Positions 44,373 through 56,967 of a stretch of 64,000 nucleotides of DNA are shown in pieces. The number at the start of each line of letters is the position of its first letter. Within the stretch, counting starts at the first letter, position 1. The translations under genes and the position numbers were made by a program. Location: the NCBI GenBank assembly GCA_965230105.1, contig CBDDKG010000005.1, positions 188,489-252,488 on the forward strand. Direction: 5' to 3'. The notes under the pieces were generated by a model. The model was not told the DNA's origin. It searched no databases and saw only the letters and a list, made by a program, of their open reading frames with translations. The DNA comes from Roseivirga sp. (GTDB lineage: Bacteria; Bacteroidota; Bacteroidia; Cytophagales; Cyclobacteriaceae).

Positions 44373-44900
44373 ATTGACGAGAACGAACTAGTTCTCCGAC
44401 TGAAAGGTCAGGACAAAGAGGCCCTGGCTTATCTATACGATAAGTACGGGGCCGCTTTGTATGGTACCGTGGAGAGAATTGTCCAGAATGAAGAGCTGTC
44501 TACCGAAGTGGTGCAGGATATCTTTATGAAAATCTGGAATAAGATCGATCAATACGACTCTGGAAAGGGACGTTTCTTCACTTGGATGCTTAATATGGCA
44601 CGGAATGCGGCCATCGATAAGGTGAGGTCCAAAGAAATCAACCGATCGGCTAAAACTGATTCGATTGATGACTACGTATATACCATTGATAGTCAGAACC
44701 AAACTGAACTTCCTGTCGATGGTATTGGTGTGAAAGAACTCATGAATGATCTGGCAGAAGAGCAGCGATTTGTTTTGCTTAAAGTATATTTCGAAGGTTT
44801 TACGCATTCGGAGATCGCTGAAGAGTTTGATATTCCCCTGGGAACCGTCAAAACCAGACTGAGGTCTGCATTAAAACATTTAAGAAAGCGACTGGAATAG
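44373..44900 (+). CDS. ECF sigma-70 factor (SigK-like); start codon uncertain
   Basis: Region 2 LYDKYG..LY and FFTWMLNMARNAAIDKVR; region 4 TH.EIAEEFDIPLGTVKTR. The frame is open from 44340, but the first TTG/ATG/GTG is at 44457, so ATT 44373 is used here. Confidence 0.9.
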   Translation: MDENELVLRLKGQDKEALAYLYDKYGAALYGTVERIVQNEELSTEVVQDIFMKIWNKIDQYDSGKGRFFTWMLNMARNAAIDKVRSKEINRSAKTDSIDDYVYTIDSQNQTELPVDGIGVKELMNDLAEEQRFVLLKVYFEGFTHSEIAEEFDIPLGTVKTRLRSALKHLRKRLE

Positions 44901-44901
44901 C

Positions 44902-45699
44902 TTGGATATAGAAAAGTACATATCGTCTGGAATTTTGGAGGCTTATGCCCTCGATACCCTATCTGTTGAAGAGCGGAAAGGAGTGGAGGATATGCTCAAC
45001 CAATATCCTGAGCTAAAAGCTGAATTGGAAGCGATCGAGTTGTCTTTAGAAGCAATAGCTCTTAAAACAGCAGTGGCGCCACCGGCTGGCTTAAAGGATG
45101 CCATACTATCTGGTGTTGAAGAAAGTGCACCCGCCAAAGAAACTAAAGTGGTAGCCATGGAACAGCCATCGGCTACCTGGAAGTATCTGGTAGCCGCTTC
45201 AGTAGCACTGGCTTTGATCAGCGGCTATATGGCTTATGACTACCGTGCCAAGTGGAAGTCTATCAATGAAGCTTATGCGGAGTTGGCGAGTTCCAATAGC
45301 CTGATGGCCGATCAATACAACAAAGTCAACCAAAGGCTGGAAGGTATAGAAAGTGACCTGGCCATTATGAGCAATTCGGAGTTTTTGAGAGTATCGATGG
45401 CAGGAACAGAAAATGCCCTGGAAGCTTCGGCCAGTGTCTTCTGGAACAAGCGCACCGAAGAACTCTTCCTCAATATCCAAAACCTTAAAACCCTGTCCGA
45501 AGACCAGCAGTATCAGCTTTGGGCCATTATAGATGGCAAACCGGTGGATGCCGGAGTCTTTGATTTAGGCACTGAAGGCTTGATCAAAATGAAGAATACT
45601 GCCGCTCAGGCGGTAGCCTTTGCCGTAACCATCGAACCTAAAGGTGGTAGTGAAGCACCTCACCTGGAAACCATGCAGGTGATCGGGAATGTGGGGTAG
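44902..45699 (+). CDS. RskA-like anti-sigma factor
   Basis: SGILEAY.L, one TM helix, coiled coil, QYQLWAI.DGKPVDAG and FAVTIEPKGGSE.P motifs; TTG start. Confidence 0.88.
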   Translation: MDIEKYISSGILEAYALDTLSVEERKGVEDMLNQYPELKAELEAIELSLEAIALKTAVAPPAGLKDAILSGVEESAPAKETKVVAMEQPSATWKYLVAASVALALISGYMAYDYRAKWKSINEAYAELASSNSLMADQYNKVNQRLEGIESDLAIMSNSEFLRVSMAGTENALEASASVFWNKRTEELFLNIQNLKTLSEDQQYQLWAIIDGKPVDAGVFDLGTEGLIKMKNTAAQAVAFAVTIEPKGGSEAPHLETMQVIGNVG

Positions 45700-45711: not shown

Positions 45712-45754
45712 AGCGCTCACCTGTCTGCCGATAGGCAGGCTTGTAGTGAGTGCT
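45712..45754. repeat. Nested REP-like palindrome
   Basis: agcgctcac...gtgagtgct encloses cctgtctgccgataggcagg (cctgtct/aggcagg stem). Confidence 0.5.
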
Positions 45755-45779: not shown

Positions 45780-45802
45780 GGTCCGCACTGCAAGTGCGAA
45801 CC
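45780..45802. repeat. Short REP-like hairpin
   Basis: ggtccgcact-gca-agtgcgaacc; the single mismatch is G.U on the - strand. Confidence 0.45.
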
Positions 45803-45842: not shown

Positions 45843-45906
45843 ACTACTACCACTAGTGATTCTGATACTAGTACTAGTGACTCACTTATACCAGCACTAG
45901 TGATTT
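45843..45906 (+). promoter_or_regulatory. Array of three ACTAGTGA direct repeats upstream of the heme-receptor promoter
   Basis: ACTAGTGA at 45852, 45873 and 45896; palindrome ACTAGTACTAGT at 45867-45878. Confidence 0.65.
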
Positions 45907-45934
45907 CCGGTGGAGCAACCGCCCTCTATATTTG
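45904..45934 (+). promoter_or_regulatory. Sigma70 promoter P1 of the TBDR-hmuY-DUF6607 operon
   Basis: TTT-N20-TATATTTG. Confidence 0.7.
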
Positions 45935-45939
45935 CATCT

Positions 45940-45958
45940 ATTAAGAATGATTCTAAAT
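45940..45958. promoter_or_regulatory. Fur-like 19-bp palindromic operator
   Basis: ATTAAGAATGATTCTAAAT, between the -7 box and the ATG. Confidence 0.72.
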
Positions 45959-45960
45959 AA

Positions 45961-48228
45961 ATGCAAAGAGCATCATTTATCGCGCTTCTGGTTATCTCAA
46001 CAAGCTTTCAGGCCTTGGGTCAGCGCCTCCTTTTCACCAATGCTGAGACAAAGGAACCAGTATCTGGTGCTGTCATCAAGCTGGAATCAATTGCTGGAAA
46101 AGGTAGTGCTGTAGCCGTCACCAATGCCAGGGGTGAGGTGACAATTGATCTCGCTTTTCCACTGATCATTCAGACCAGTCATCTGGCATATGAAGCCTAT
46201 CAAGACACCCTATATAACAGTGATGTCAATGCATTTCAGCTGGTGCCCAGAATCACGGAGTTAGATCAGGTGGTGGTCACAGGTCAGTTTAATCCTCAAG
46301 CGGCCAGTAATTCCATTTTCAGAGTACAAACAATCGATTCAAAAGAGTTTAAACAGCGTGGTGCTTTCAACCTACAAGAGGTACTCAGCAACCAGTTAAA
46401 TATTCGGGTGAGTCAGGATTTAGCCATTGGCAGTTCATCTATTAGTCTGCAGGGTATTTCAAGTCAGAATGTAAAGATCCTGGTAGACGGTATTCCACTA
46501 GTTAACCGCTCGGGTAATGGCAATGGTGCAGACCTGAGTCAGATTAATCTCCAGAATATTGAGCGAATAGAAATTGTGGAAGGCCCTATGGCCGTGAATT
46601 TTGGGGCTAACGCATTGGCTGGTGTGATTAACCTCATCACCAAAAAGGACTTCAATAGTAGAACAGAAGTTAGACTCGATATTCAGTCAGAGACGGCTGG
46701 CAATGAGTTGGGTCTGGATGCAGGTCGGCATGTGCAATCCATAGGAGTTAACCACAGGTTGAATGAGAAGTGGTCATTTCTAGTGAGCGCTCAGCATAAT
46801 GATTTCTTAGGCTTTCAGGGGAACGCTGGTGTCAGGCAGAATGAATGGAATCCGAAAAGACAGTGGTTAGGGAACGGCTTGCTGAGGTATCAGTCTGATA
46901 ACCATAGTCTACATTATCGCTTTGATGCACTCAATGAGCTTATTCAAGACTTTGGAGCAGCTCAAAACAACTTCTTGCCTTCAGGAGAAAATCAGCCCTT
47001 TGCTATTGATGAAACCTATGATTCTAGAAGGTATTCTCATCAGCTGCAGGCGGAAGGAAGATTACCCTTCCTAAATCGATATACTGCCTTTGCTTCCTTT
47101 TCTGATTTCGAAAGAGATAAGAGACGCTTTACCAAGAATATTGTCACGGGTGCCGAACAGTTGACAAACGGAGATGGTGATCAAGACCTAAGTACCTATG
47201 GCGTATGGGAGTTTGGTGGAACAGGCTTTTTAAGTCCTGCTAATGCCTTTGACTTACAAGTAGGCTACCAAATTTCACTGGAGCGTGTAGGAGGGGGGAG
47301 AATCCTGGATGCGGAACAGGGCATCGAAGAGTATGCAGTTTATACCTCTGCAGAATGGAGACCGGCTGCAAAGGCCACTTTTAGACCCGGTCTTCGTTTT
47401 ACCACGAATAGTGTCTTTGGCAGCCAGCTGATTCCATCACTGCAGTTTAAGTACCATCAAAGCGAGGCCTTACAATTCAGAATTTCTTATGGAGGCGGCT
47501 TTAGAGCGCCATCGGTACGGGAGCTTTACTTTGAGTTTGTCGATTCCAATCATAGGATTTTCGGAAACCCTGACCTGACGCCTGAGACCTCGAATCATTT
47601 CAGCCTGAATACTATTTCTAAGTATAAGATTGCATCTACCAATGTGGATGTAGATCTGAATCTTTTCTACAATAGTATTAGTGATCAGATCTCTTTGGGG
47701 CAGAATGTCAATGATATTACCAGCACCACCTACCTGAATATTGAGCGTTTTAAAACCTTGGGGCTCACCCTGACCCAGAAGGCTCAGTTCGGGGCGCTGT
47801 CTGCGAATATTGGCTTTTCTTATATCGGCCGTTTCAATAGAATTTCAGATAATGAGGAGGGTCTGGACGACTTCTTTTACTCTCCAGAGTTCAATGCTAA
47901 TCTTTCTTATCGCTTTTCAAAAAGCCGTACCTCCATCAATGCCTTTTACAAGTACACCGGCCGACTGCAGTCCTATTTCACAGATACAAACAGTCAGAAT
48001 GAGCAGGTGATCAGCATTGGAGAAATCAGTGATTTCCACTGGTTGGATGCTACCATAATTCAGCCTTTGAGTAATGCTTTCGAGCTGACCCTGGGTGCAC
48101 AAAATATTTTAAATGTAATCAATATCAATAATTCAGGTGTGGGTGGAGGAGCCCACTCCGGAGGACCTTCTGTACCCATATCCTATGGAAGATCTTATTT
48201 CTTAAAACTAAGCTATAATCTAAAATAA
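45961..48228 (+). CDS. TonB-dependent receptor, HmuR/FepA-CirA-like (probable heme receptor)
   Basis: CarboxypepD-like N-terminus, LDQVVVTGQ TonB box, ILVDGIP, IERIEIVEGP and RAPS.RELY motifs; adjacent to hmuY. Confidence 0.88.
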   Translation: MQRASFIALLVISTSFQALGQRLLFTNAETKEPVSGAVIKLESIAGKGSAVAVTNARGEVTIDLAFPLIIQTSHLAYEAYQDTLYNSDVNAFQLVPRITELDQVVVTGQFNPQAASNSIFRVQTIDSKEFKQRGAFNLQEVLSNQLNIRVSQDLAIGSSSISLQGISSQNVKILVDGIPLVNRSGNGNGADLSQINLQNIERIEIVEGPMAVNFGANALAGVINLITKKDFNSRTEVRLDIQSETAGNELGLDAGRHVQSIGVNHRLNEKWSFLVSAQHNDFLGFQGNAGVRQNEWNPKRQWLGNGLLRYQSDNHSLHYRFDALNELIQDFGAAQNNFLPSGENQPFAIDETYDSRRYSHQLQAEGRLPFLNRYTAFASFSDFERDKRRFTKNIVTGAEQLTNGDGDQDLSTYGVWEFGGTGFLSPANAFDLQVGYQISLERVGGGRILDAEQGIEEYAVYTSAEWRPAAKATFRPGLRFTTNSVFGSQLIPSLQFKYHQSEALQFRISYGGGFRAPSVRELYFEFVDSNHRIFGNPDLTPETSNHFSLNTISKYKIASTNVDVDLNLFYNSISDQISLGQNVNDITSTTYLNIERFKTLGLTLTQKAQFGALSANIGFSYIGRFNRISDNEEGLDDFFYSPEFNANLSYRFSKSRTSINAFYKYTGRLQSYFTDTNSQNEQVISIGEISDFHWLDATIIQPLSNAFELTLGAQNILNVININNSGVGGGAHSGGPSVPISYGRSYFLKLSYNLK

Positions 48229-48229
48229 C

Positions 48230-49315
48230 ATGATACTCAAAAAAGTAACCTATTACCTGGCTGTCATTGGCCTGTTTGCCATGACCGCCTGTTCTAACGA
48301 TGATACCCCGACTATCGATCCGCCAGCTACAGGAGCCATTATTGATCCTGCCGTGGGTGGTCCAACCCAGCCGAATCAGGTTTTCATTGACTTGTCAAAG
48401 GAGAGTCAGTCTTCTGTAAGCAGAAACTCATGGGATCTCGGTTTTCATACGGGTACTGATTTCAGAGTTATTCTGAATAATTCGGCCAGTACTTTGGCCA
48501 GATCCATTGACAAAAACGATTTGAATGCCATCACTGCTGCAGATACTGCTGGTTTTGGTGCACAACTTAATATTGATGCCATCTTTGGAGCCCTATTTGG
48601 TCCACCACCAGCATGGTTATTCAGTGCTGCAAGCTGGTCTGATGACCCTTCAGGTGACTTAACCAAGACCGCTATTGCTGAAGTATCAGCTACGGATGCT
48701 GATAATCAAGTATATATCATCAACAGAGGAAAGAACCCTGATGGTTCTCCAAGAGGTTGGATGAAGATCCGTACCCTGAGAAACTCAAATGGCTATACCC
48801 TGCAGTATGCCGAAATTGGTGCGACAAGTTTCCAGGAACTGAATATCACGAAAAACAATGATGTTGACTTTGTTCCGGTAAGTTTCGACAATGGTATTAT
48901 CACTTCAATTCCTGAAAAGAATGATTGGGATTTTGTCTTTACCATTTTCACAAACCTCTTACCGATAAGTCAGGACGTTTCCATCCCTTACGCCATTAGA
49001 GATTACATCTTAATCAATGCCAATAGAGTAGAGGTGGCCATGGTAGAGATCGCGGCTGGCACTAGCTACGAAGACTTTGCCATTGGTGCCGTTGGTGCTT
49101 TGAATTTTTCCACTGAAGTAGCCGCCATTGGTAGTGGCTGGAGAAATGTGGCACAACCAGGTTCTAACGTTGAAACCGGCATTAAAGATGACATCTTCTA
49201 TGTGGTGAAGGATACTGACGAGAACTATTACAAACTACGCTTTACTCGCCTTGTGGATGCGCAACCCGGAGACAGAGGAAACCCTCAGTTTCAGTATGAA
49301 CTGCTAGTCCAATAA
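48230..49315 (+). CDS. hmuY: HmuY family lipoprotein
   Basis: Lipobox MTAC followed by acidic SNDD; NQVFIDLS, WDLGF, WDFVF and YYKLRF motifs. Confidence 0.82.
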   Translation: MILKKVTYYLAVIGLFAMTACSNDDTPTIDPPATGAIIDPAVGGPTQPNQVFIDLSKESQSSVSRNSWDLGFHTGTDFRVILNNSASTLARSIDKNDLNAITAADTAGFGAQLNIDAIFGALFGPPPAWLFSAASWSDDPSGDLTKTAIAEVSATDADNQVYIINRGKNPDGSPRGWMKIRTLRNSNGYTLQYAEIGATSFQELNITKNNDVDFVPVSFDNGIITSIPEKNDWDFVFTIFTNLLPISQDVSIPYAIRDYILINANRVEVAMVEIAAGTSYEDFAIGAVGALNFSTEVAAIGSGWRNVAQPGSNVETGIKDDIFYVVKDTDENYYKLRFTRLVDAQPGDRGNPQFQYELLVQ

Positions 49316-49349
49316 GACTGAAATCACGAACTATTATAACAGACTGAAT

Positions 49350-50261
49350 ATGAAACAATTATTAATTATCGCCCTATGTGTCATCAGCATGAGTACATGG
49401 GCACAAAGCAAAAAGAAGCAGGATGTCGCTGCGATAAAAGAAATGTGTGGGTGCTACAAGGTAAGGTTCAATTTTGCCGAAACCTTCGCACCAGACAGGC
49501 GCTATGAGTTCCATAAAAACTATAAATCAAAAGGCCTTGAGTGGGTTCAGTTGGTCGAGGAGGATAAAAACAAGGTCTCTTTGCAGCACCTGCTGATTGT
49601 GGCTCCTAAGACGATCGTGAAGCATTGGAGACAGGACTGGATCTATCAAAACACTGACTTTTATACCTATGACAAGGATAACAGTTGGAAGTATAAAGCG
49701 CTTTCAAAGAAAGACGTCAAAGGCCAGTGGTCTCAGAAAGTTTATCAGGTAGATGGTAGTCTTCGTTACGAAGGTTCGTCAAGCTGGGTACATGTAGATG
49801 GTCGACACTATTGGGAGAATACTGCTGATTCTCCTCTACCAAGACGTGAGTATTCCAAACGGACGGATTACAACTTAATGGTAAGAACTAACCGTCAGGA
49901 GTTGACACCAGAAGGTTGGGTACATGAGCAGGATAATGATAAGGTCATCAGGTCTGAGAAAGGTGACAAGTTATTAGCCCAAGAGAAAGGCTGGAATACC
50001 TATACAAAAGTAGATGACAGTGAGTGTAAAGATGCTCACGAATGGTGGGCGAAAAATAAGCAATACTGGTCTGATGTTAGACAGGTGTGGGATGAAGTTT
50101 TTGCATCAAAATCAACTTTGACCTTTAAGCGAAAAGTGGACGAGAAGGTTATGTACGAAAGAATTTTTGCCCTGGGAGATAAGGTCTTGGAAGCTGATGC
50201 TTATGACAGCGAAGCCATTCAGAAAGAGTTGAATGATATTATAAACGCATATCGTGATTAG
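49350..50261 (+). CDS. DUF6607-like exported protein
   Basis: Signal peptide; MCGCYKV.F.FAETF, KHWRQDW, WSQKVYQVD, PLPRREY and GWVHEQDN motifs. Confidence 0.72.
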   Translation: MKQLLIIALCVISMSTWAQSKKKQDVAAIKEMCGCYKVRFNFAETFAPDRRYEFHKNYKSKGLEWVQLVEEDKNKVSLQHLLIVAPKTIVKHWRQDWIYQNTDFYTYDKDNSWKYKALSKKDVKGQWSQKVYQVDGSLRYEGSSSWVHVDGRHYWENTADSPLPRREYSKRTDYNLMVRTNRQELTPEGWVHEQDNDKVIRSEKGDKLLAQEKGWNTYTKVDDSECKDAHEWWAKNKQYWSDVRQVWDEVFASKSTLTFKRKVDEKVMYERIFALGDKVLEADAYDSEAIQKELNDIINAYRD

Positions 50262-50285
50262 TTAAATTGTTTCATATCATGAGTT

Positions 50286-50319
50286 GAAGAGGGGACCCAC
50301 TTCGTGGTGTTCCTTCTTC
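50286..50319 (+). terminator. Hairpin terminating the heme operon
   Basis: gaagaggggacccacttcgtggtgttccttcttc, followed by tatt. Confidence 0.55.
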
Positions 50320-50411
50320 TATTAGCTTATGATAGGACTGTCTACGATTAAAAACAGAATAACGGCTGAAGGAACAAGAACAACGTTAGCAGTTAAATTT
50401 TCTTTTAACCG

Positions 50412-50439
50412 AAAGGGGCAACTATTCAGTCGCCCCTTT
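50412..50439 (-). terminator. Hairpin terminating the flavodoxin operon
   Basis: aaaggggcaact-attc-agtcgccccttt; the one mismatch is G.U on the - strand. Confidence 0.6.
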
Positions 50440-50499
50440 GAAATTTAAAACCACTTCTGTTAGAAACATATCTGGTTTAACACTACGTATTGTGTGAGA

Positions 50500-51036
50500 C
50501 TAATTGGCCATCACTGAATCGCTAATAATGGGAAACTCCTCTTGGATCTGTTCCAGCCAGGCATCGACACGGTCCACTGTCAGGTCTCTTTGGTTGTCTT
50601 CATCGACAGCTAAACCCATAAACCAGCCAGGCTCAAACTCTGCAACAGACTCTAGGTAGTCATAACCTTCGGTAGGCCAGACACCAATAATCTCTCCTCC
50701 ATTTTGGGCGATGACATTGCCAAGAATACCAACGCCATCAATAAAGAACTCGCCATAGCCTATCTGGTCCCCCAGGCCAAATAGAGCTACTTTTTTGCCA
50801 CTAAAATCGATGGTTTGGAAGGTCTCAAAAAAGCTCTCCCAGTCACTTTGCAAATCGCCATCAAACCAGGTAGACAGGCCAAGAATTAGTTTATCATACT
50901 GATCAAAATCCGACTTCTTCACCTTGTAAACGTCATAAACGTCTAGCATTTCCTCTCCTAATTTTTTGATGATAAGTTCAGATACATATTCAGTAGAGCC
51001 CGTATCTGAGCCATAAAACAAACCAATTTTTTCCAT
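50500..51036 (-). CDS. fldA: Long-chain flavodoxin
   Basis: IGLFYGSDTGSTE, LGLSTW..GDLQSDW, ALFGLGDQ.GY..FF.D and GL.VDEDNQ motifs. Confidence 0.95.
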   Translation of the reverse strand: MEKIGLFYGSDTGSTEYVSELIIKKLGEEMLDVYDVYKVKKSDFDQYDKLILGLSTWFDGDLQSDWESFFETFQTIDFSGKKVALFGLGDQIGYGEFFIDGVGILGNVIAQNGGEIIGVWPTEGYDYLESVAEFEPGWFMGLAVDEDNQRDLTVDRVDAWLEQIQEEFPIISDSVMAN

Positions 51037-51039
51037 GTA

Positions 51040-51390
51040 TTATTTTCTGTTTCCTGTACTGTCTTTTTGTGTTGGCAAAGCCAATAATCTACTTTCTATT
51101 ATCAGCTGAGTTTCGATGAGCAATGATTCCAATTGATTTAACTGTTCTTCTGAAAGCACGAAGTGAATGTTAAGACGCTCTATTTGGACGAGTGCCTTCT
51201 TGTTTAACAAGGTGTTGAACCACTGAAAACTTTGTTGTTGAGTTGTTATAAAGTCTTTGAAGTAAGCGATGCCAAGAGGACTAAGTTCAAGACTCATATA
51301 CTCGGACTTCACCAAAAATGAATCTCCCACATCACTGACAGCGATGCTCCCAAAAGGATTTTCATTAATGACGTGTCCAATTCTTGGCAT
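51040..51390 (-). CDS. Divergent, Cys-free DUF6686-like paralog
   Basis: Same length and the same beta-beta-beta-alpha x2 pattern as the two upstream paralogs; shares the C-terminal helix pattern (LIETQLII vs LEEAMLML). Confidence 0.5.
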   Translation of the reverse strand: MPRIGHVINENPFGSIAVSDVGDSFLVKSEYMSLELSPLGIAYFKDFITTQQQSFQWFNTLLNKKALVQIERLNIHFVLSEEQLNQLESLLIETQLIIESRLLALPTQKDSTGNRK

Positions 51391-51582
51391 TTACTTACTT
51401 TTTCCTTTGAGCCTTATCTTTTCGTTTAGGTAGGGGCACTGAATTTTGGCAATGCCCTCTAGTTCAGCATCTGTTAATGAAGTGTTGCCTGCAATAACCT
51501 CATTGATGACCCTGTCAAAATCTATATTGAGAATCGATTGACCACGATTCGAATTTGTGCCTTGAATAGATCCTTTATCCAT
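51391..51582 (-). CDS. Small (63 aa) hypothetical protein with a QCPYL motif
   Basis: ATG start; its stop abuts the next gene's ATG; fills the operon gap. Confidence 0.6.
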   Translation of the reverse strand: MDKGSIQGTNSNRGQSILNIDFDRVINEVIAGNTSLTDAELEGIAKIQCPYLNEKIRLKGKSK

Positions 51583-51631
51583 CTTCCTATATGATTTAGT
51601 ATTTAGTTTGATCCATCAAGGACTTAGTTTC

Positions 51632-51955
51632 TTAGCTAATAAGTGTTTTGTTAATCTGATCCATCAGCATTGCCTGCTCGATTTCACTTATGATGTATTG
51701 CGTTTCTTCCTGGGTGAAACCCATACCATGACCGTCAAATTTTGAATTACTGATTACAGCTTTCAGGCCTTGTGGATGCCTTGCAGTGTAGTGCTGAATG
51801 GTGAGCGATTTCAGTATCTTCAAGAATGCTCTTAGTTCTCGCCTCGTAAAGGTCATGAAGAGGTTCTTATAATTCACATTGTAGTGGTTACAACACTTAC
51901 ACCTATAAATCTGGATGTCTTCCGACTCATGCAGTATGATTATTTTGTGTGTCAT
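51632..51955 (-). CDS. DUF6686-like protein
   Basis: CKCC..Y.V.YKN motif; 4-nt overlap with the upstream paralog. Confidence 0.7.
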   Translation of the reverse strand: MTHKIIILHESEDIQIYRCKCCNHYNVNYKNLFMTFTRRELRAFLKILKSLTIQHYTARHPQGLKAVISNSKFDGHGMGFTQEETQYIISEIEQAMLMDQINKTLIS

Positions 51956-52284
51956 TCTTTTATTTCTAGAGATTCGTGCACTTGTAACATGAGCATGGCC
52001 TCTTCCAAAACCGTAACGAGTTCTCCAAACTCTTCTAGGTTAAAACAAAATTGTATGTCAGGATGGCAAGTTTCCAGTACCGTATAGTCCTGACCATTTG
52101 GAAACCTGGTGGCGTTTTTAAAGAACTCCGAACTTGTAACTCCCTGATAAAAATTGTTGAACTCCTCAATTTCAAATCCTACAAGTATGTTTTTATAGTA
52201 TAGGCCTACGCGCTTACAACACTTGCATAAGGAAATATTTAAGTGAGGGCTATCTACTAAGATTGTTGGACTACATTGACTCAT
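51952..52284 (-). CDS. DUF6686-like protein
   Basis: CKCCKRVGLYYKN and IQFCFNLEEF..L...LEEA motifs. Confidence 0.72.
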   Translation of the reverse strand: MSQCSPTILVDSPHLNISLCKCCKRVGLYYKNILVGFEIEEFNNFYQGVTSSEFFKNATRFPNGQDYTVLETCHPDIQFCFNLEEFGELVTVLEEAMLMLQVHESLEIKE

Positions 52285-52297
52285 AGTATCTGGTTTT

Positions 52298-52325
52298 AAA
52301 ACTCGCCCTCCGAAGAGAGCGAGTT
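52298..52325 (-). terminator. Intrinsic terminator inside the leader
   Basis: Minus strand aactcgctctc-ttcg-gagggcgagtt-tt. Confidence 0.7.
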
Positions 52326-52494
52326 ATTGACTGATTATATGAAGAGTATTCAATTACGTAGGAGTCACCCTTCTGATGACTCCTGCAGTAGAGTGTATCC
52401 ATCACTTACATTTTCAATTCTGTGATTTAGTGATGCATTTCCTCCTTAGTGATCTCGATCGAGGTATTTCCACTGCAACTTCTCCACTATTATT

Positions 52495-52513
52495 ATTTAG
52501 ACTAATTCTAAAC
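52495..52513. promoter_or_regulatory. Fur-like 19-bp operator
   Basis: ATTTAGACTAATTCTAAAC, just downstream of the -7 box. Confidence 0.72.
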
Positions 52514-52520
52514 AATGACA

Positions 52521-52551
52521 CAAATGTATACTCGAAGTATGACTCGGACAA
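52521..52551 (-). promoter_or_regulatory. Sigma70 promoter P2 of the leader-DUF6686-flavodoxin operon
   Basis: Minus strand TTG-N20-TACATTTG. Confidence 0.75.
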
Positions 52552-52590
52552 TCGCTAGTTGTAGTAGTATTGCTTACTACTAATAGTGAT
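52551..52590. promoter_or_regulatory. Upstream motif of P2 (ACTACTACAACTAGCGATT plus a TAGTAGTA-N5-TACTACTA inverted repeat)
   Basis: 17/19 identical to 45843-45861; perfect 8-bp inverted repeat at 52562-52582. Confidence 0.55.
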
Positions 52591-52629
52591 TTCGAAGGGA
52601 GAATGGAATAGCTTCGGAAGGCACTTGGA

Positions 52630-54834
52630 CTAGTAGCAGTCGGTCTTAATCTGACCACACATTTTCAGGTGATTCAGGCTGAGTCCGGAACCTTTTTTGA
52701 GGTGCTCAGCAAGCACCTTCTCAACTGCCTGTTGCATGCTGAGTCCACCACAAATCATAATGACATGTCCCTGGCTGAGGGCTGTGGTAATCCACCTTAA
52801 CTCTTTGCTGATGGCATCCTGAACATATTGTTTCTCATCGCCTTCTCTTGAGAAGGCTGTGATGAGCTTATTCAACTTTCCAGTGGTAACGGCTCTGTCT
52901 AATTGTTCTTGGTAGAGTTGATAAGAAGCTGTATTCCGCCCTCCCCAAAACAGTGAGATATGCTGTTTTAGTGGGCTATCATTGATCATGCCGAGAAAAG
53001 GAGCAATGCCTGTTCCATTCGCAATCATAATAACCCCCGGTGCTTCTTTAGGTAGGTGAAATGCTGGATTGGTCTTCAGATTACCCAATACCTTATTGCC
53101 AATATTTGATTCACTTAAATAGGACGAGCATATGCCCATATCATGCTTTCTGATGCTGAGCGTAATCGTTGATGCTTCGTTATCCACAGACATGGAATAC
53201 AGGCGCTCGCGGCTTTCCCCTGGAGGTATTACAGATAATAGGTCTCCCGACTGGTATGCTTTCAGTTTGCGTTTTGAAGACTTTAAAGTCAGAAGAAACG
53301 TTTGATCTGATGAGTTAGGAGAATCACATTTTTCTGTGACCAAGAATGGAAGTTGTTTCCTTTTTGGAATGGCCAGATCCTGTTCATCAATCGAGATTTT
53401 CTGGCCCGTTTTCGTTCCTAAGGCTTGAACCCAGTGCATGAACTCGTCTTTGGACTCATTGTCCACCTTGTGCAATGGTACAAGCTGAGTAGCCTCTGTT
53501 CCCTGGCTTAACTGAGCATTGGACTCAATAGCAAACTGGCAAAAGTCAGGATAGGCCGTACTCCCAAAGCCTAAAACTGCATATTGGAAGGGTTGTTGTT
53601 GCTTTGTGTTTCGAACTTTATGAATAAACTTTTTGGCATTTTCAGGCGCTTCCCCCACACCATAGGTGGAGGTCAAGACGAGTAATTGCTCCATATTCTT
53701 AAAGGACTCATATTCGTCCATGCCGGTTAGGTGTACTTTGTGTTGAAGCTTGAGCAAACTCTTTTGCAAAGCCCTGGCAAAACGCATGGTACTGCCCTGT
53801 TCGGAACCTACCAGAATGATAATTTCGCTATCATCTTTGCTGTATGGATTTATGATTTTACTCTTATCTCTTTTCAGGTAAATGGCAAAACCACTATAGA
53901 TAAAGAATAGAATACCGATTCCGGTAAGTCCCAATACAGACGCCCAAATGATAGTGCCTTCTCCCGTATGAAGGTTAAAGCTTAACTGATATGCTAGCTT
54001 TACCAAAGGGTAGTCAAGCTCACTGATCACTGTCCCATTAAACTGATTGACCAGGAGTTCCTTATTCTTAAGTTTGACTTCGTAGTATTCCTCAGGGAAT
54101 TCGGCAAATGGGAAGTTGAGTTCTCTTAGATCTTCAAGTGTGTAGGTATTGAATGGCTCAAAGGAGGATAGGGGTTGTTTCGGTTCTTCTGTGAGTCGGG
54201 TCTCATCTATTGAGTGATCGAGTGGTGGTATGACAACCAAATTGAACCGCTCCATAAATAGATAGGTGCCAGTGGCGCCAAGCACTATGATGGATAGGAT
54301 CAGCCAGCGGCTGAAGCGTGTGTGGTAATCCTTGTAGAAGTCGTTTTTAATGACTTTCGAAAAGTAATTTTTGATACCACCCTGCTTCTTAAGTATCAGA
54401 AAGAAACCGCTAAGTGCCATAAACAAGAGTATGACAGAGACCAAGCCTATGAGAAACCTTCCGATCTGACCCAGAAATAGAGATCGGTGCAAACTGCGGC
54501 TAAATTCAAAGATTCTAGGGGTTCGGATAAGCTCACCAATTTTCAGACCTGTGAATGGATCGACATAAAAAGGGGTGTCTGAATCAATGGTTTGGATAGA
54601 AACAAAGCCGTTCTTGTCACGAGAAATGTTAAGAACTTCTTCATGCTGAGCTGTAATGTTGGTGATGGCCTCACTCAATAGTAGGTCATCTGCTTTTTTT
54701 ACCTGATAGGGATGTGTCTTTTGATAGATAGGCTCAAAAGACAAGATAGCGCCTGTAATAGACGCTATCAGAAGAAATATCGTACTGATTATAGCCAGCC
54801 AGAGGTGTGTGACCCGCCACAATGAGAGTGACAT
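52630..54834 (-). CDS. PepSY-TM + flavodoxin + FAD/NAD(P)H (FNR) fusion oxidoreductase
   Basis: WRVTHLWL, SLHRSL and LHTGEG membrane His; GSEQGST and STYGVGEAP flavodoxin motifs; RLYSM, GICS, GTGIAPF, YVQD and ICGG FNR motifs. Confidence 0.88.
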   Translation of the reverse strand: MSLSLWRVTHLWLAIISTIFLLIASITGAILSFEPIYQKTHPYQVKKADDLLLSEAITNITAQHEEVLNISRDKNGFVSIQTIDSDTPFYVDPFTGLKIGELIRTPRIFEFSRSLHRSLFLGQIGRFLIGLVSVILLFMALSGFFLILKKQGGIKNYFSKVIKNDFYKDYHTRFSRWLILSIIVLGATGTYLFMERFNLVVIPPLDHSIDETRLTEEPKQPLSSFEPFNTYTLEDLRELNFPFAEFPEEYYEVKLKNKELLVNQFNGTVISELDYPLVKLAYQLSFNLHTGEGTIIWASVLGLTGIGILFFIYSGFAIYLKRDKSKIINPYSKDDSEIIILVGSEQGSTMRFARALQKSLLKLQHKVHLTGMDEYESFKNMEQLLVLTSTYGVGEAPENAKKFIHKVRNTKQQQPFQYAVLGFGSTAYPDFCQFAIESNAQLSQGTEATQLVPLHKVDNESKDEFMHWVQALGTKTGQKISIDEQDLAIPKRKQLPFLVTEKCDSPNSSDQTFLLTLKSSKRKLKAYQSGDLLSVIPPGESRERLYSMSVDNEASTITLSIRKHDMGICSSYLSESNIGNKVLGNLKTNPAFHLPKEAPGVIMIANGTGIAPFLGMINDSPLKQHISLFWGGRNTASYQLYQEQLDRAVTTGKLNKLITAFSREGDEKQYVQDAISKELRWITTALSQGHVIMICGGLSMQQAVEKVLAEHLKKGSGLSLNHLKMCGQIKTDCY

Positions 54835-54838
54835 ACAG

Positions 54839-55339
54839 TTATTTACTAGCCGATTTTTGAATTAACTGCACATAGCGGATGTAGCCATTGCCTTTTAATC
54901 GCTGACCCGCCATGCTATCTGTCAAGTCTATCTCTAGATCCTTTTCGTGATAATCCTGATCTTCTACCGCAGTCTCAAACCTTAATTTGTAACCGGCATT
55001 AACCATTGAAGCATCAAGGCTTACTGTAGCGACTTTTCTTCCCCCACTAGAGATAGAGGCGCCAGCCATACCGTCAATTTCTACTTTATTGCTCGGATAG
55101 AATTCATACCATGCCGGTAGATCTTCGTACCAATCCTCATCATCGCCATGTACAGACACGGTCTTCACATATTCTCCTTCAGTATTCAATACTGAAACCA
55201 CAACATAGGCACCTTCGCCACCATAGTTGGTCAGCTGGATGAGGCATTTGTATGTGACAGCTTCGTTGTTAATCGATTTAAATCCAAAGCTGATGCTTGC
55301 TGCCAATAAGAGAACAGCGATTAATAATTTGTTTTTCAT
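54839..55339 (-). CDS. DUF2271 family exported protein
   Basis: Signal peptide; NYGGEGAYVV.S, WY.DL..W, IDGMAGASI and RFETAVED motifs. Confidence 0.8.
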   Translation of the reverse strand: MKNKLLIAVLLLAASISFGFKSINNEAVTYKCLIQLTNYGGEGAYVVVSVLNTEGEYVKTVSVHGDDEDWYEDLPAWYEFYPSNKVEIDGMAGASISSGGRKVATVSLDASMVNAGYKLRFETAVEDQDYHEKDLEIDLTDSMAGQRLKGNGYIRYVQLIQKSASK

Positions 55340-56856
55340 TATTTCTGAGTTTTCAAAAATTCAATATTGGTGATGTTGGCCCCTAAAATTTCGTTTTCCA
55401 TGGCCAGGTCATATGCAGACTCTTCGAATTCAGTTCTGACGTTTTTATCGGCTCCAGAAGCGATTAAGAATTTGAGTAAATCGCTGGTTTCTGATAGCAT
55501 GGCTGCATGGTGTAAGATCGTTTGGCCATTCGCATCTTTTGCGTTGATGTCAATGCCCAGAGCAATAAGCCTTTTCAGAAATTCAATGTTCTGTCGTGAA
55601 ATGGCCACATGCAGCAGCGTCTGCCCATCAAATTGTGTTGTTTTGGGATTGTAACCTTTGGACATTAAGAACTTCATCTTTTGATCGAAGAGATCAAGAT
55701 TATTTCTCGTGCCATCTACGACATGGTAACCTAGGTCATAAACTCCATCTGCTTTGACTTCTATTTGAGCTCCGGCATCGGCAAGAAATTCGACTACGTC
55801 CATATTATTGTATTTGATGGCTCGCATAAAGCTGGAAAAGCCTTCTTTATTCTTGCTATTGATGTCCTTAGTCTTATTTGCCAAGAACTTTACTTTTTCC
55901 AGTCCACCTCTGGCTGAGGCATTGATCAGGGGAGTGTTACCATCTTTATCTACCTGGTTGACATCAGCGCCCTTATCGATGAAGTATTGGAGGGTTTTGA
56001 CATCATTGGAGCGGAATGCAAGGTTGTGTAGCGCATTTCTGCCTGACTTAGTCGATTTCGCAGGATCAAGCCCCAGACTTTCAAAGTATTTGAATAATAA
56101 GATTGGAGATGCTTCATTTTCACCAAAGTTTCTGTTAGTCGCAAAGTAGAAAGCGTTCTCCCCCGTCTTTGGGTTAGCCTTGAAGTCGACTTTGTAATCA
56201 TCAACAAGCTTTTGTAATAACTCTTTATTCCGAGTGGAAGCCGCATAGTGAAAGAGGCCATTACCATTATCATCCGTCTCATGGATGTCTACACCTAAGC
56301 CCATGAAGTAATCAAGCATTTCGGTGTTTTCGAGTCGACCTGCGAAAGTCATTAAGACATTTCTACCATTTCGCGGATTCTTCGCTGCAATGTCTAAGCC
56401 ATTGGCCATAGACAGTTCGTATACCTTTTTGTTAGCTTGACCTGAACGTGCTGCAAACATCATGGCATTGTTGCCGCCATCATCGACTAGCTCAATTTTG
56501 ATTCCACTTGACAGTAAATATTCCATCACTTCAGTATTGCCCCTTAAGGCAGCCCAGTGGAGATAAGTTCGGGCATCATGGGTGATGGTATTGACTTCGC
56601 CTACTTGCTTAACCAAATACTTGATTACATCTGTAGCATTATTCTCAAGTATGGCATAGGTAGTAGGGTCAAACATTGAAGAAGTAAACTCAGTAGGTGA
56701 GTGGCCTTCCTTTACTTTTTGTTTCACCTCTTCTAAAGAGGGTTGTAATCTCCAAAAACCTCTGTCTAGAAATTTATTCGACTGTTGTGCAGTGGCGGTG
56801 AACTGGATAAGAACACAGCAAATCAATAAAATCCTGCTAAGTAAACTGACTCTCAT
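55339..56856 (-). CDS. Exported ankyrin-repeat protein
   Basis: Signal peptide; many T.LH.A..G...V..LL..GA.IN..D..G repeats. Confidence 0.9.
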   Translation of the reverse strand: MRVSLLSRILLICCVLIQFTATAQQSNKFLDRGFWRLQPSLEEVKQKVKEGHSPTEFTSSMFDPTTYAILENNATDVIKYLVKQVGEVNTITHDARTYLHWAALRGNTEVMEYLLSSGIKIELVDDGGNNAMMFAARSGQANKKVYELSMANGLDIAAKNPRNGRNVLMTFAGRLENTEMLDYFMGLGVDIHETDDNGNGLFHYAASTRNKELLQKLVDDYKVDFKANPKTGENAFYFATNRNFGENEASPILLFKYFESLGLDPAKSTKSGRNALHNLAFRSNDVKTLQYFIDKGADVNQVDKDGNTPLINASARGGLEKVKFLANKTKDINSKNKEGFSSFMRAIKYNNMDVVEFLADAGAQIEVKADGVYDLGYHVVDGTRNNLDLFDQKMKFLMSKGYNPKTTQFDGQTLLHVAISRQNIEFLKRLIALGIDINAKDANGQTILHHAAMLSETSDLLKFLIASGADKNVRTEFEESAYDLAMENEILGANITNIEFLKTQK

Positions 56857-56881
56857 TCCGATCGGATTAGTTATTGTTGTT

Positions 56882-56900
56882 ATTTAGACTAATTCCAAAC
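56882..56900. promoter_or_regulatory. Fur-like 19-bp operator
   Basis: ATTTAGACTAATTCCAAAC, 18/19 identical to 52495-52513. Confidence 0.72.
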
Positions 56901-56930
56901 AAAGGTAAAGCGCAAAGGTTCAAGGATCAA
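56900..56930 (-). promoter_or_regulatory. Sigma70 promoter P3 of the ankyrin-DUF2271-PepSY operon
   Basis: Minus strand TTG-N20-TACCTTTG. Confidence 0.75.
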
Positions 56931-56951
56931 CTGTCAATGCGGCTAATTCGA

Positions 56952-56967
56952 TCACTAGTACTAGTAT
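56952..56967 (-). promoter_or_regulatory. Upstream 16-mer ATACTAGTACTAGTGA
   Basis: Exact match to 45865-45880, in the same orientation relative to transcription. Confidence 0.65.

What the first reader, a model, noticed from the sequence alone, without database searches (positions are those of the whole stretch)
45843..56967. Unexplained ACTAG(T/C)GA upstream motif shared by three iron-operon promoters: candidate unknown regulator
Seen: P1 has ACTAGTGA at 45852, 45873 and 45896 (21 and 23 bp apart, about two helical turns). ATACTAGTACTAGTGA occurs exactly at 45865-45880 and at 56967-56952 (- strand), ending 46 and 44 nt before the P1 and P3 -7 boxes. P2 has ACTACTACAACTAGCGATT, 17/19 identical to 45843-45861. 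Its ACTAGCGA ends 23 nt before the -7 box, the same gap as the proximal P1 copy, directly abutting the -33 element. No candidate regulator gene lies in the island. Inference: a trans-acting activator or co-repressor, possibly heme- or redox-responsive (AraC- or LytTR-like phasing), acts on top of Fur. Clustered CTAG methylation control is an alternative.
Basis: partly seen in the sequence, partly recalled or inferred. Interest (0 to 1): 0.8.

Follow-up and report, generated by a model that had tools for sequence, protein, structure and literature searches.

The report
Iron-promoter palindrome for LuxR-type regulator
The repeated ACTAGTGA words are the right halves of a conserved 16-base palindrome (TCACTA-N4-TAGTGA) just upstream of four iron-starvation promoters, and it is most likely the docking site of an unstudied LuxR-type regulator that carries its own Fur box and is widespread in environmental Bacteroidota.

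Summary
The real unit is a 16-bp imperfect palindrome, TCACTA-N4-TAG(T/C)GA. P1 has three copies, P2 two and P3 one.

- **Conservation.** In 16 same-genus (Roseivirga) genomes the sites keep fixed offsets from the -7 box and Fur box while the flanking DNA diverges.
- **Genome scan.** A matrix built only from other genomes puts its seven best hits in this 4.6-Mb genome on P1, P2, P3 and a fourth promoter, P4 (DUF4856-imelysin-HTTM-TonB operon, another contig). About 15 loci carry the Fur-like box; only these four carry the palindrome.
- **Candidate regulator.** It is a single-copy orphan NarL/LuxR-type protein (receiver-like domain plus GerE HTH). It lies outside the window, converging on the P4 operon. 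In most relatives it sits directly upstream of the TonB-HmuY operon, and it usually has its own Fur box.
- **Link between motif and regulator.** The motif is present in 17/20 genomes with the regulator and 0/5 without. Across 80 named genomes, 21/25 loci with recognition helix HT(V/I)NSHRK carry the palindrome, against 3/55 with other helices. A sister branch has a different palindrome, ATACCCT-N4-AGGGTAT.

Best reading: a Fur-controlled secondary activator. Binding and its sign are untested. This is a new member of a known kind.

The parts
45844..45859 (+). P1 distal operator copy, CTACTACCACTAGTGA
   Evidence: PWM score 22.9. The same offset (-109 from the Fur-box anchor) is occupied in 6 relatives.
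45865..45880 (+). P1 middle operator copy, ATACTAGTACTAGTGA; ends 46 nt before the -7 box
   Evidence: PWM score 19.9. Offset -88/-87 (-90 in one genome) is occupied in 15 of 16 genus genomes, with a perfect TCACTA-N4-TAGTGA in 7 of them.
45888..45903 (+). P1 proximal operator copy, ATACCAGCACTAGTGA; ends 23 nt before the -7 box and abuts the -33 position (TTTC at 45904-45907)
   Evidence: PWM score 23.5, the top hit of the genome. Offset -66 to -64 is conserved in 12 of 16 genomes at 3 mismatches or fewer.
45927..45934 (+). P1 -7 box, TATATTTG (Bacteroidota TAnnTTTG type)
   Evidence: The column is conserved in all orthologs.
45937..45960 (+). P1 Fur-like box, TCTATTAAGAATGATTCTAAATAA
   Evidence: The same box precedes sufB, feoA, a ferritin-like gene and a TonB receptor gene elsewhere in the genome.
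45961..50261 (+). P1 operon: TonB-dependent receptor, HmuY-like protein, DUF6607 protein
   Evidence: Pfam and NCBIfam.
52552..52567 (-). P2 proximal operator copy, CTACTACAACTAGCGA; ends 23 nt before the -7 box (52528-52521)
   Evidence: PWM score 18.8.
52574..52589 (-). P2 distal operator copy, TCACTATTAGTAGTAA; 22 bp centre to centre from the proximal copy
   Evidence: PWM score 20.9 on the opposite strand reading.
52493..52516 (-). P2 Fur-like box
50500..52284 (-). P2 operon: three DUF6686 genes and flavodoxin
   Evidence: Pfam. In G018 and G020 a DUF6686 gene directly follows the regulator gene; the G018 copy has its own palindrome and Fur box, the G020 copy a palindrome only.
56952..56967 (-). 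P3 operator copy, ATACTAGTACTAGTGA; ends 44 nt before the -7 box (56907-56900)
   Evidence: PWM score 22.6. Kept in all 7 orthologous ankyrin-operon promoters, at 44-89% protein identity.
56880..56903 (-). P3 Fur-like box
52630..56856 (-). P3 operon: ankyrin-repeat protein, DUF2271 protein, PepSY_TM-flavodoxin-FNR reductase
   Evidence: Pfam.

Best explanation
**What it is.** The ACTAG(T/C)GA words are the right half-sites of a 16-bp imperfect palindrome, TCACTA-N4-TAG(T/C)GA. In its best copies it reads TCACTAG-TA-CTAGTGA.

**Who binds it (inferred).** It is the operator of a single-copy orphan NarL/LuxR-type regulator of about 205-211 aa. The protein has a receiver-like domain, a GerE helix-turn-helix and the recognition helix S-I-H-T-V-N-S-H-R-K. 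In this genome the gene lies at G000:C11:9853-10485 (-), outside the window.

**How it is arranged.** Dimers would bind one to three tandem sites spaced 20-25 bp apart.
- The proximal site ends 23 nt before the -7 box, so it abuts the -33 element. That is a class-II-like activator position, centred near -42.
- The next site lies one step further upstream, near -64.

**The proposed circuit.** The targets carry a Fur box over the transcription start. In this genome and most relatives the regulator gene carries one too. Iron shortage would first release Fur from both. The newly made regulator would then boost a subset of the Fur regulon:
- TonB receptor-HmuY-DUF6607
- DUF6686 genes and flavodoxin
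- ankyrin-DUF2271-PepSY reductase
- DUF4856-imelysin-HTTM-TonB

**Shown here:** the motif, its palindromic nature, its positional conservation, its restriction to Fur-box promoters, and its co-occurrence and covariation with the regulator.

**Inferred:** physical binding, the sign of regulation (activation), and any extra signal the receiver-like domain may sense.
For: 1. **Phylogenetic footprint.** In 16 genus genomes, with TonB receptor identity down to 54%, sites stay at -109, -88 and -65 from the Fur-box anchor while the flanks diverge. The P3 site is kept in 7 of 7 orthologous promoters. P4 sites are kept in 4 of 6.
2. **Palindrome.** A search that specified only TAGYGA, the -7 box and the Fur box gave 24 hits against 4 for the reversed control. 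The unspecified left half ACTA was exact in 13 and within one mismatch in 22.
3. **Specificity.** A PWM trained without G000 puts its top 7 of 9.2 million positions on P1 (three), P3, P2 (two) and P4. The next hits lie inside a long ORF or upstream of a gene with no evident link to iron. Only 4 of about 15 Fur-box loci carry the palindrome.
4. **Regulator link by position.** The gene ends directly upstream of the P1 motif in at least 12 of the 16 P1 orthologs. In G000 it converges on the P4 operon.
5. **Regulator link by phyletic pattern.** The composite motif is in 17/20 genomes with the regulator and 0/5 without, Fisher p=0.001. G016 also has sites, with a TAGCTA half.
6. **Covariation with the recognition helix.** Loci with the NSH helix carry the palindrome in 14/19 cases, against 0/15 for other helices, in other genera (p=1e-5). 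In 80 independently drawn named genomes the figures are 21/25 against 3/55 (p=2e-12).
7. **Unbiased palindrome count.** It recovers CACTA-N4-TAGTG as the top word in the NSH group (15/25). In the H/Y-T-H helix group it recovers a different palindrome, ATACCCT-N4-AGGGTAT.
8. **Protein family.** GerE domain at 65 bits, over the curated cut-off. Closest solved relatives are VraR and LiaR.
9. **Fur box on the regulator's own gene**, in G000 and most relatives.
Against: - No binding or expression data exist.
- Everything linking protein to motif is comparative, and the helix groups are also clades. Part of the covariation could therefore be shared ancestry, although the sister clade's different palindrome argues for real specificity.
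- Four of 25 canonical-helix loci show no site within 2.5 kb, and 3 of 55 non-canonical loci do.
- Activation is inferred from site position only.
- P3 has no proximal site.
- The phospho-acceptor position is Glu in G000 and the first acidic residue is Tyr, so how activity is controlled is unknown.
Confidence: 0.7

Rival explanations
1. The LuxR-type regulator binds the palindrome but acts as a repressor or co-repressor, for example damping uptake when heme or iron returns. It would not be an activator.
For: Nothing measured here gives the sign of regulation. NarL-family proteins can repress from palindromic sites. Tandem sites could coat the upstream promoter region.
Against: Sites never overlap the -7 box or the start site, which the Fur box already occupies. 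They keep quantised activator-like positions, ending 23 nt or about 44-46 nt before the -7 box, in many genera. A repressor that carries its own Fur box, and so would be made only under iron shortage, acting on genes needed under iron shortage, is a less economical circuit.
Confidence: 0.17
2. The palindrome is bound by some other transcription factor that is inherited together with this iron-uptake gene set. The LuxR-type gene would be only a neighbour.
For: Regulator-less genomes also lack all tested target operons. The phyletic pattern alone therefore cannot separate the regulator from any other co-inherited gene.
Against: The motif tracks the recognition-helix sequence of this protein, and a sister helix class has its own palindrome. 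The gene is the constant neighbour while the flanking genes change between TonB-HmuY, feoB-like, PepSY and DUF6686 genes. No other regulator gene recurs in these loci.
Confidence: 0.08
3. The motif is a set of AraC- or LytTR-type direct repeats. Or it is a promoter element of the ECF sigma factor encoded just upstream (44457-44900, with its RskA-type anti-sigma at 44902-45699).
For: The 21-23 bp spacing resembles LytTR or AraC phasing. An ECF sigma/anti-sigma pair does sit next to P1.
Against: Each site is an inverted repeat, and the left half is conserved. The ECF pair was not seen upstream of P1 in any relative read, yet the motif is conserved there. P1 keeps a housekeeping-type TAnnTTTG box.
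Confidence: 0.03
4. Clustered CTAG sites serve methylation-based control, or the repeats are remnants of a mobile or repeat element.
For: CTAG is under-represented genome-wide, at about 7,600 sites against about 16,700 expected. Most sites contain CTAG (21 of 26).
Against: The invariant positions are C-A-C-T-A and T-A-G-Y-G-A, extending beyond CTAG. Several strong sites lack CTAG (P4, and 5 of 26). Fixed distances to the -7 box and the absence of copies elsewhere in the genome argue against a repeat element.
Confidence: 0.02

Closest known systems
CdhR (PG1237/PGN_1373) of Porphyromonas gingivalis, the LuxR-family regulator of hmuYR
   Same: A Bacteroidota protein of about 22 kDa with a C-terminal GerE/LuxR HTH. 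It is reported as an activator of the hmuY-hmuR heme-uptake operon (PMC11018363, citing Wu et al. 2009). It works in addition to a Fur homologue.
   Different: Orthology was not tested, and no Porphyromonas appeared among the 80 best relatives. The CdhR operator is undefined, and its binding to the hmuY promoter is disputed between strains (PMC11018363). The family found here has a defined palindrome, a Fur box on its own gene and two invariant cysteines.
NarL/FixJ-family response regulators with palindromic operators (NarL 7-2-7 heptamers, ComA box 6-4-6, VraR/LiaR sites; operator details recalled from memory)
   Same: REC plus GerE architecture, with VraR and LiaR as the closest solved structures (E=4e-21). 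The operator is a 16-bp inverted repeat with 6-4-6 / 7-2-7 geometry, often in tandem upstream of -35.
   Different: No partner kinase gene was seen in the loci read. The acceptor Asp is Glu in 57 of 132 members, and the first acidic residue is usually Tyr. Phosphorylation is therefore doubtful. Expression rather than phosphorylation appears to be the input, through Fur.
Fur-subordinate pathway-specific activators (AraC-type PchR, YbtA and AlcR; ECF sigmas PvdS and FecI; from established knowledge)
   Same: A two-tier circuit. Fur represses a secondary regulator, which then turns on a subset of iron-uptake genes.
   Different: The protein family is different (NarL/LuxR-type pseudo-receiver). 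Here the targets also keep their own Fur boxes, which makes a feed-forward arrangement.
Atypical LuxR-type receivers such as VpsT and CsgD (from established knowledge)
   Same: A receiver-like domain that probably does not rely on phosphorylation, fused to a GerE HTH.
   Different: There was only a weak match to CsgD (E=2e-10, far below cut-off). No c-di-GMP motif was examined. The conserved Cys pair is specific to this family.

Membership tests
NarL/FixJ (LuxR_C/GerE) response-regulator family: the candidate regulator | C-terminal GerE/LuxR-type helix-turn-helix domain | tested here: met
   PF00196 hits G000:C11:9892-10059 at 65.2 bits, over the 23.5-bit cut-off. Orthologs give E=4e-16 and 9e-20.
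NarL/FixJ (LuxR_C/GerE) response-regulator family: the candidate regulator | N-terminal receiver (REC) domain | tested here: met
   PF00072 at 34-36 bits against a 30.2-bit cut-off in orthologs. It is precomputed for the 99%-identical P0001. The protein aligns full-length to VraR.
NarL/FixJ (LuxR_C/GerE) response-regulator family: the candidate regulator | Conserved phospho-acceptor Asp and acidic Mg pocket | tested here: not met
   In G000, Glu aligns with VraR Asp55 and Tyr aligns with the first acidic residue. Across 132 relatives the acceptor is D in 74 and E in 57. The protein is therefore an atypical, pseudo-receiver member.
NarL/FixJ (LuxR_C/GerE) response-regulator family: the candidate regulator | Partner histidine kinase encoded alongside | tested here: not met
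   In G000 the neighbours are mutS and the P4 operon. In the flanking ORFs read in relatives none looked like a kinase by length or N-terminal sequence; they were not scanned against Pfam.
NarL/FixJ (LuxR_C/GerE) response-regulator family: the candidate regulator | Dimer binding to an inverted-repeat operator | not testable with these tools
   The sequence is consistent with it: a 16-bp palindrome with 6-4-6 geometry. Binding itself needs EMSA or footprinting.
CdhR of P. gingivalis | Orthology to PG1237 and control of hmuYR | not tested
No Porphyromonas appeared among the 80 best loci. The resemblance is functional only.
Fur box: the companion element | AT-rich inverted repeat of about 19 bp over the core promoter of iron genes, with a Fur protein encoded in the genome | tested here: met
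   TTTAGAATnATTCTAAA lies just downstream of the -7 box (overlapping it at P3) and precedes sufB, feoA, ferritin-like and TonB receptor genes. Fur-family genes lie at C23:30824-31210 and C6:156763-157146.
   Each unit is an inverted repeat whose left arm is conserved independently of the search pattern.

The most novel reading that the evidence does not exclude
Its members are LuxR-type pseudo-response regulators, most with a Fur-like box within 2.5 kb. Their receiver-like domain would not be phosphorylated. Instead it would sense iron, Fe-S, heme or redox state through two invariant cysteines (TKxC and FFC). Sub-branches would have evolved different palindromic operators: TCACTA-N4-TAGTGA for the N-S-H helix and ATACCCT-N4-AGGGTAT for the H/Y-T-H helix.
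Probability: 0.25. Interest if true: 0.72.

Novelty: new member of a known kind. Interest (0 to 1): 0.52.

Why it matters
Iron regulation in environmental Bacteroidota is known almost only at the level of Fur.

This result gives a concrete second tier: a defined operator, a defined candidate regulator and a defined four-promoter regulon. The regulon covers TonB/HmuY uptake, flavodoxin, a PepSY reductase and the DUF4856-imelysin-HTTM cluster.

The system is testable with simple gel-shift and deletion experiments. It is present in hundreds of marine and soil species.

It also groups several proteins of unknown function (DUF6607, DUF6686, DUF2271, DUF4856) into one co-regulated iron-starvation response. 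It offers a possible template for the still undefined operator of the P. gingivalis heme regulator CdhR.

Tried and rejected
- **ECF sigma/anti-sigma pair upstream of P1.** Rejected as the factor, because it was not seen upstream of P1 in any relative read while the motif is kept there.
- **CTAG methylation and repeat-element ideas.** Rejected.
- **LytTR or AraC direct-repeat reading.** Rejected because the sites are palindromes.
- **Next-best PWM hits.** C2:62964 lies inside a 1039-aa ORF. C13:232160 lies upstream of a 161-aa ORF that was not annotated and shows no evident link to iron. Both were treated as chance.
- **Autoregulation in G000.** No palindrome lies in the regulator's own promoter, only a Fur box. 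One other genus does have a palindrome there (L081).
- **Natural experiment.** I looked for target genes surviving in regulator-less genomes. None exist, because the targets are lost together with the regulator.
- **Literature.** Searches found no description of this regulator or motif. A check of the VraR operator sequence in a paper gave nothing usable.
- **CdhR orthology.** Not testable, because no CdhR sequence was at hand and the named control genomes lack Porphyromonas.

Full report
**1. The observation**

- ACTAGTGA lies at 45852, 45873 and 45896 (+) and at 56952-56959 (-). ACTAGCGA lies at 52552-52559 (-).
- The 16-mer ATACTAGTACTAGTGA occurs at 45865-45880 and 56967-56952. TACTAGTACTAGTGA occurs only twice in the genome.
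- The gaps to the TAnnTTTG boxes are 23 nt (P1 proximal site and P2) and 46 and 44 nt (P1 middle site and P3).

The 8-mer count in the window is not remarkable by itself: 5 found against 2.5 expected. However, the window is G000:C5:188489-252488 of a 4.58-Mb, 41% G+C genome. In that genome the P1 triple is the only cluster of three or more among 134 copies of ACTAGYGA.

**2. Gene context**

- P1 drives a TonB-dependent receptor, an HmuY-like protein and a DUF6607 protein.
- P2 (- strand) drives three DUF6686 genes and flavodoxin.
- P3 (- strand) drives an ankyrin-repeat protein, a DUF2271 protein and a PepSY_TM-flavodoxin-FNR reductase.
- Directly upstream of P1 lies a SigK/RskA-type ECF sigma/anti-sigma pair (44457-45699).

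**3. The real unit is a palindrome**

I took the orthologous P1 promoters from 16 same-genus genomes, with TonB receptor identity of 54-86%. Protein names identify the genus as Roseivirga.

Aligned on the Fur-like box, the promoters show sites at fixed offsets of -109, -88 and -65. The sequence between the sites diverges.

The sites read TCACTA-N4-TAGTGA. Seven genomes have a perfect copy at -88, for example TCACTAGTACTAGTGA. The ACTAGYGA word is therefore the right arm of a 16-bp inverted repeat.

An independent check supports this. A search across 25 genus genomes specified only TAGYGA, N22-24, TANNTTTG, N8-24 and CTAAAT. It gave 24 hits, against 4 for the reversed control. The unspecified left arm ACTA was exact in 13 hits and within one mismatch in 22.

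The P3 site is kept in all 7 orthologous ankyrin-operon promoters.

**4. Specificity within the genome**

A weight matrix built from the other genomes' sites, with G000 excluded, was scanned over both strands of G000. Its seven best hits are:
- the three P1 sites,
- the P3 site,
- the two P2 sites,
- a fourth promoter, P4, at C11:3546. P4 has the same layout: site, 23 nt, TACATTTG, Fur-like box.

P4 drives a DUF4856-imelysin-HTTM-TonB receptor operon. The next hits look like chance.

The companion box TTTAGAATnATTCTAAA occurs at about 15 loci. These include sufB, feoA, a ferritin-like gene, another TonB receptor gene and a cytochrome gene. Fur-family genes are present in the genome. The box is therefore a Fur box, and the palindrome marks a four-promoter subset of the Fur regulon.

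**5. The candidate regulator**

In most relatives, a 205-aa gene ends immediately upstream of the P1 motif. It encodes a receiver-like domain plus a GerE/LuxR HTH.

G000 has one clear ortholog at C11:9853-10485 (-). It scores E=4e-61, against 5e-20 for the next paralog. It is one of 14 GerE-domain proteins in the genome.

The gene converges on the end of the P4 operon and has a Fur-like box in its own promoter. In many relatives that box appears as the in-frame peptide ISLNKN upstream of the start codon.

The closest solved structures are VraR and LiaR. In G000, the residue aligned with the phospho-acceptor Asp is Glu, and the first acidic pocket residue is Tyr. Across 132 relatives the acceptor position is Asp in 74 and Glu in 57. 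Two cysteines, C106 and C126, are invariant. No kinase gene was seen in the loci read.

**6. Linking the regulator to the motif**

- **Phyletic pattern.** The composite motif occurs in 17 of 20 genus genomes that have the regulator and in 0 of 5 that lack it (Fisher p=0.001). The exceptions carry degenerate right arms, TAGTAA or TAGCTA. The regulator-less genomes also lack all tested target operons.
- **Other genera of the same GTDB family.** I drew 35 regulator loci, each with about 4 kb of flank. They hold 26 high-scoring sites in 273 kb, where the G000 background predicts about 0.2. All 26 sites are in loci whose recognition helix reads S[IVY]HT[VI]NSHRK: 14 of 19 such loci, against 0 of 15 for other helices (p=1e-5).
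- **An independent named set.** They include Roseivirga, Fulvivirga, Chryseolinea, Marinoscillum, Ekhidna and Flexithrix, several Flavobacteriales families and Chitinophagales. In the 80 loci returned, 21 of 25 canonical-helix loci carry the palindrome, against 3 of 55 others (p=2e-12). Fur-like boxes are near 23 of 25 and 46 of 55.
- **An unbiased count of palindromic 5-mers upstream of Fur boxes.** It recovers CACTA-N4-TAGTG as the top word in the canonical group (15 of 25). The H/Y-T-H helix group gives a different palindrome, ATACCCT-N4-AGGGTAT. That palindrome is in 11 of 20 such loci, against 3 of 25 canonical loci.

The operator therefore co-varies with the recognition helix. That is the expected pattern if this protein reads the motif.

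**7. Mechanism**

The proximal site ends 23 nt before the -7 box, so it abuts the -33 position. The sequence there is TTG or TTTC. Further sites follow at 20-25 bp steps.

These are activator-type positions, and Fur already covers the start site. The most economical circuit is a feed-forward loop. Iron shortage lifts Fur from the regulator gene and from the targets, and the regulator then activates the subset.

Binding, the sign of regulation and any ligand are inferred, not shown.

**8. Comparison with known systems and novelty**

The closest known analogue is P. gingivalis CdhR. It is a LuxR-family protein of about 22 kDa, reported to activate hmuYR. Its DNA-binding mechanism is still undefined (PMC11018363). 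Orthology could not be tested here.

The site geometry matches NarL-family operators, as recalled from memory. The two-tier logic matches the Fur-to-PchR, YbtA, PvdS and FecI cascades, from established knowledge.

Literature searches found nothing on this regulator or motif.

I rate this a new member of a known kind. There is a wider possibility: an unstudied Cys-containing pseudo-receiver family that is common in environmental Bacteroidota.

**9. Limits**

- The helix groups are also clades, so the covariation is partly phylogenetic.
- The activator role rests on site position only.

Noticed in passing
G000:C11:9853-10485 (outside the window); relatives P0001-P0120, L074-L206: The regulator family has two invariant cysteines, in TKxCS and FFC (C106 in 132/132 sequences, C126 in 131/132). 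The phospho-acceptor position alternates between Asp (74) and Glu (57), and the first acidic residue is usually Tyr. This suggests a sensing role other than phosphorylation, perhaps Fe-S, heme or redox.
   Followed up: partly
L130, L141, L143, L160, L161, L173 and others (Chryseolinea and Flavobacteriales loci): Relatives whose recognition helix reads H/Y-T-H instead of N-S-H have a different palindrome nearby, ATACCCT-N4-AGGGTAT (11 of 20 loci). This is probably the operator of a sister branch.
   Followed up: partly
window 44457-45699: A SigK-type ECF sigma factor and an RskA-type anti-sigma factor lie directly upstream of P1, followed by two hairpins (about 45722-45745 and 45781-45802). The pairing was not seen upstream of P1 in the relatives read. 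In P. gingivalis an ECF sigma (SigCH) is reported to control cdhR and hmuYR (cited in PMC11018363).
   Followed up: partly
G000:C11:3546-9855: A fourth member of the regulon lies outside the window: the DUF4856-imelysin-HTTM(VKGC-like)-TonB receptor operon. It has the same arrangement of operator, 23 nt, TACATTTG and Fur box. The regulator gene converges on its 3' end.
   Followed up: yes
G000: C14:138619, C11:157826, C13:173422, C6:160831, C2:86515: These are Fur-like boxes without the palindrome. They lie upstream of ORFs read by eye as sufB, feoA, a ferritin-like gene, a TonB receptor gene and a multi-heme cytochrome gene. Together they outline the plain Fur regulon of this genome.
   Followed up: partly
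window 52427-52453 (- strand leader of P2): Two copies of the left half-site alone, ATCACTAA, lie 19 nt apart in the 5' leader downstream of P2. It is not known whether the regulator touches them.
   Followed up: no
G018:C4:116597-117665; G020:C23:71024-72083: In two Roseivirga species a DUF6686 gene directly follows the regulator gene. The G018 copy has its own palindrome and Fur box; the G020 copy has a palindrome only. This ties the unknown DUF6686 family closely to this regulon.
   Followed up: partly
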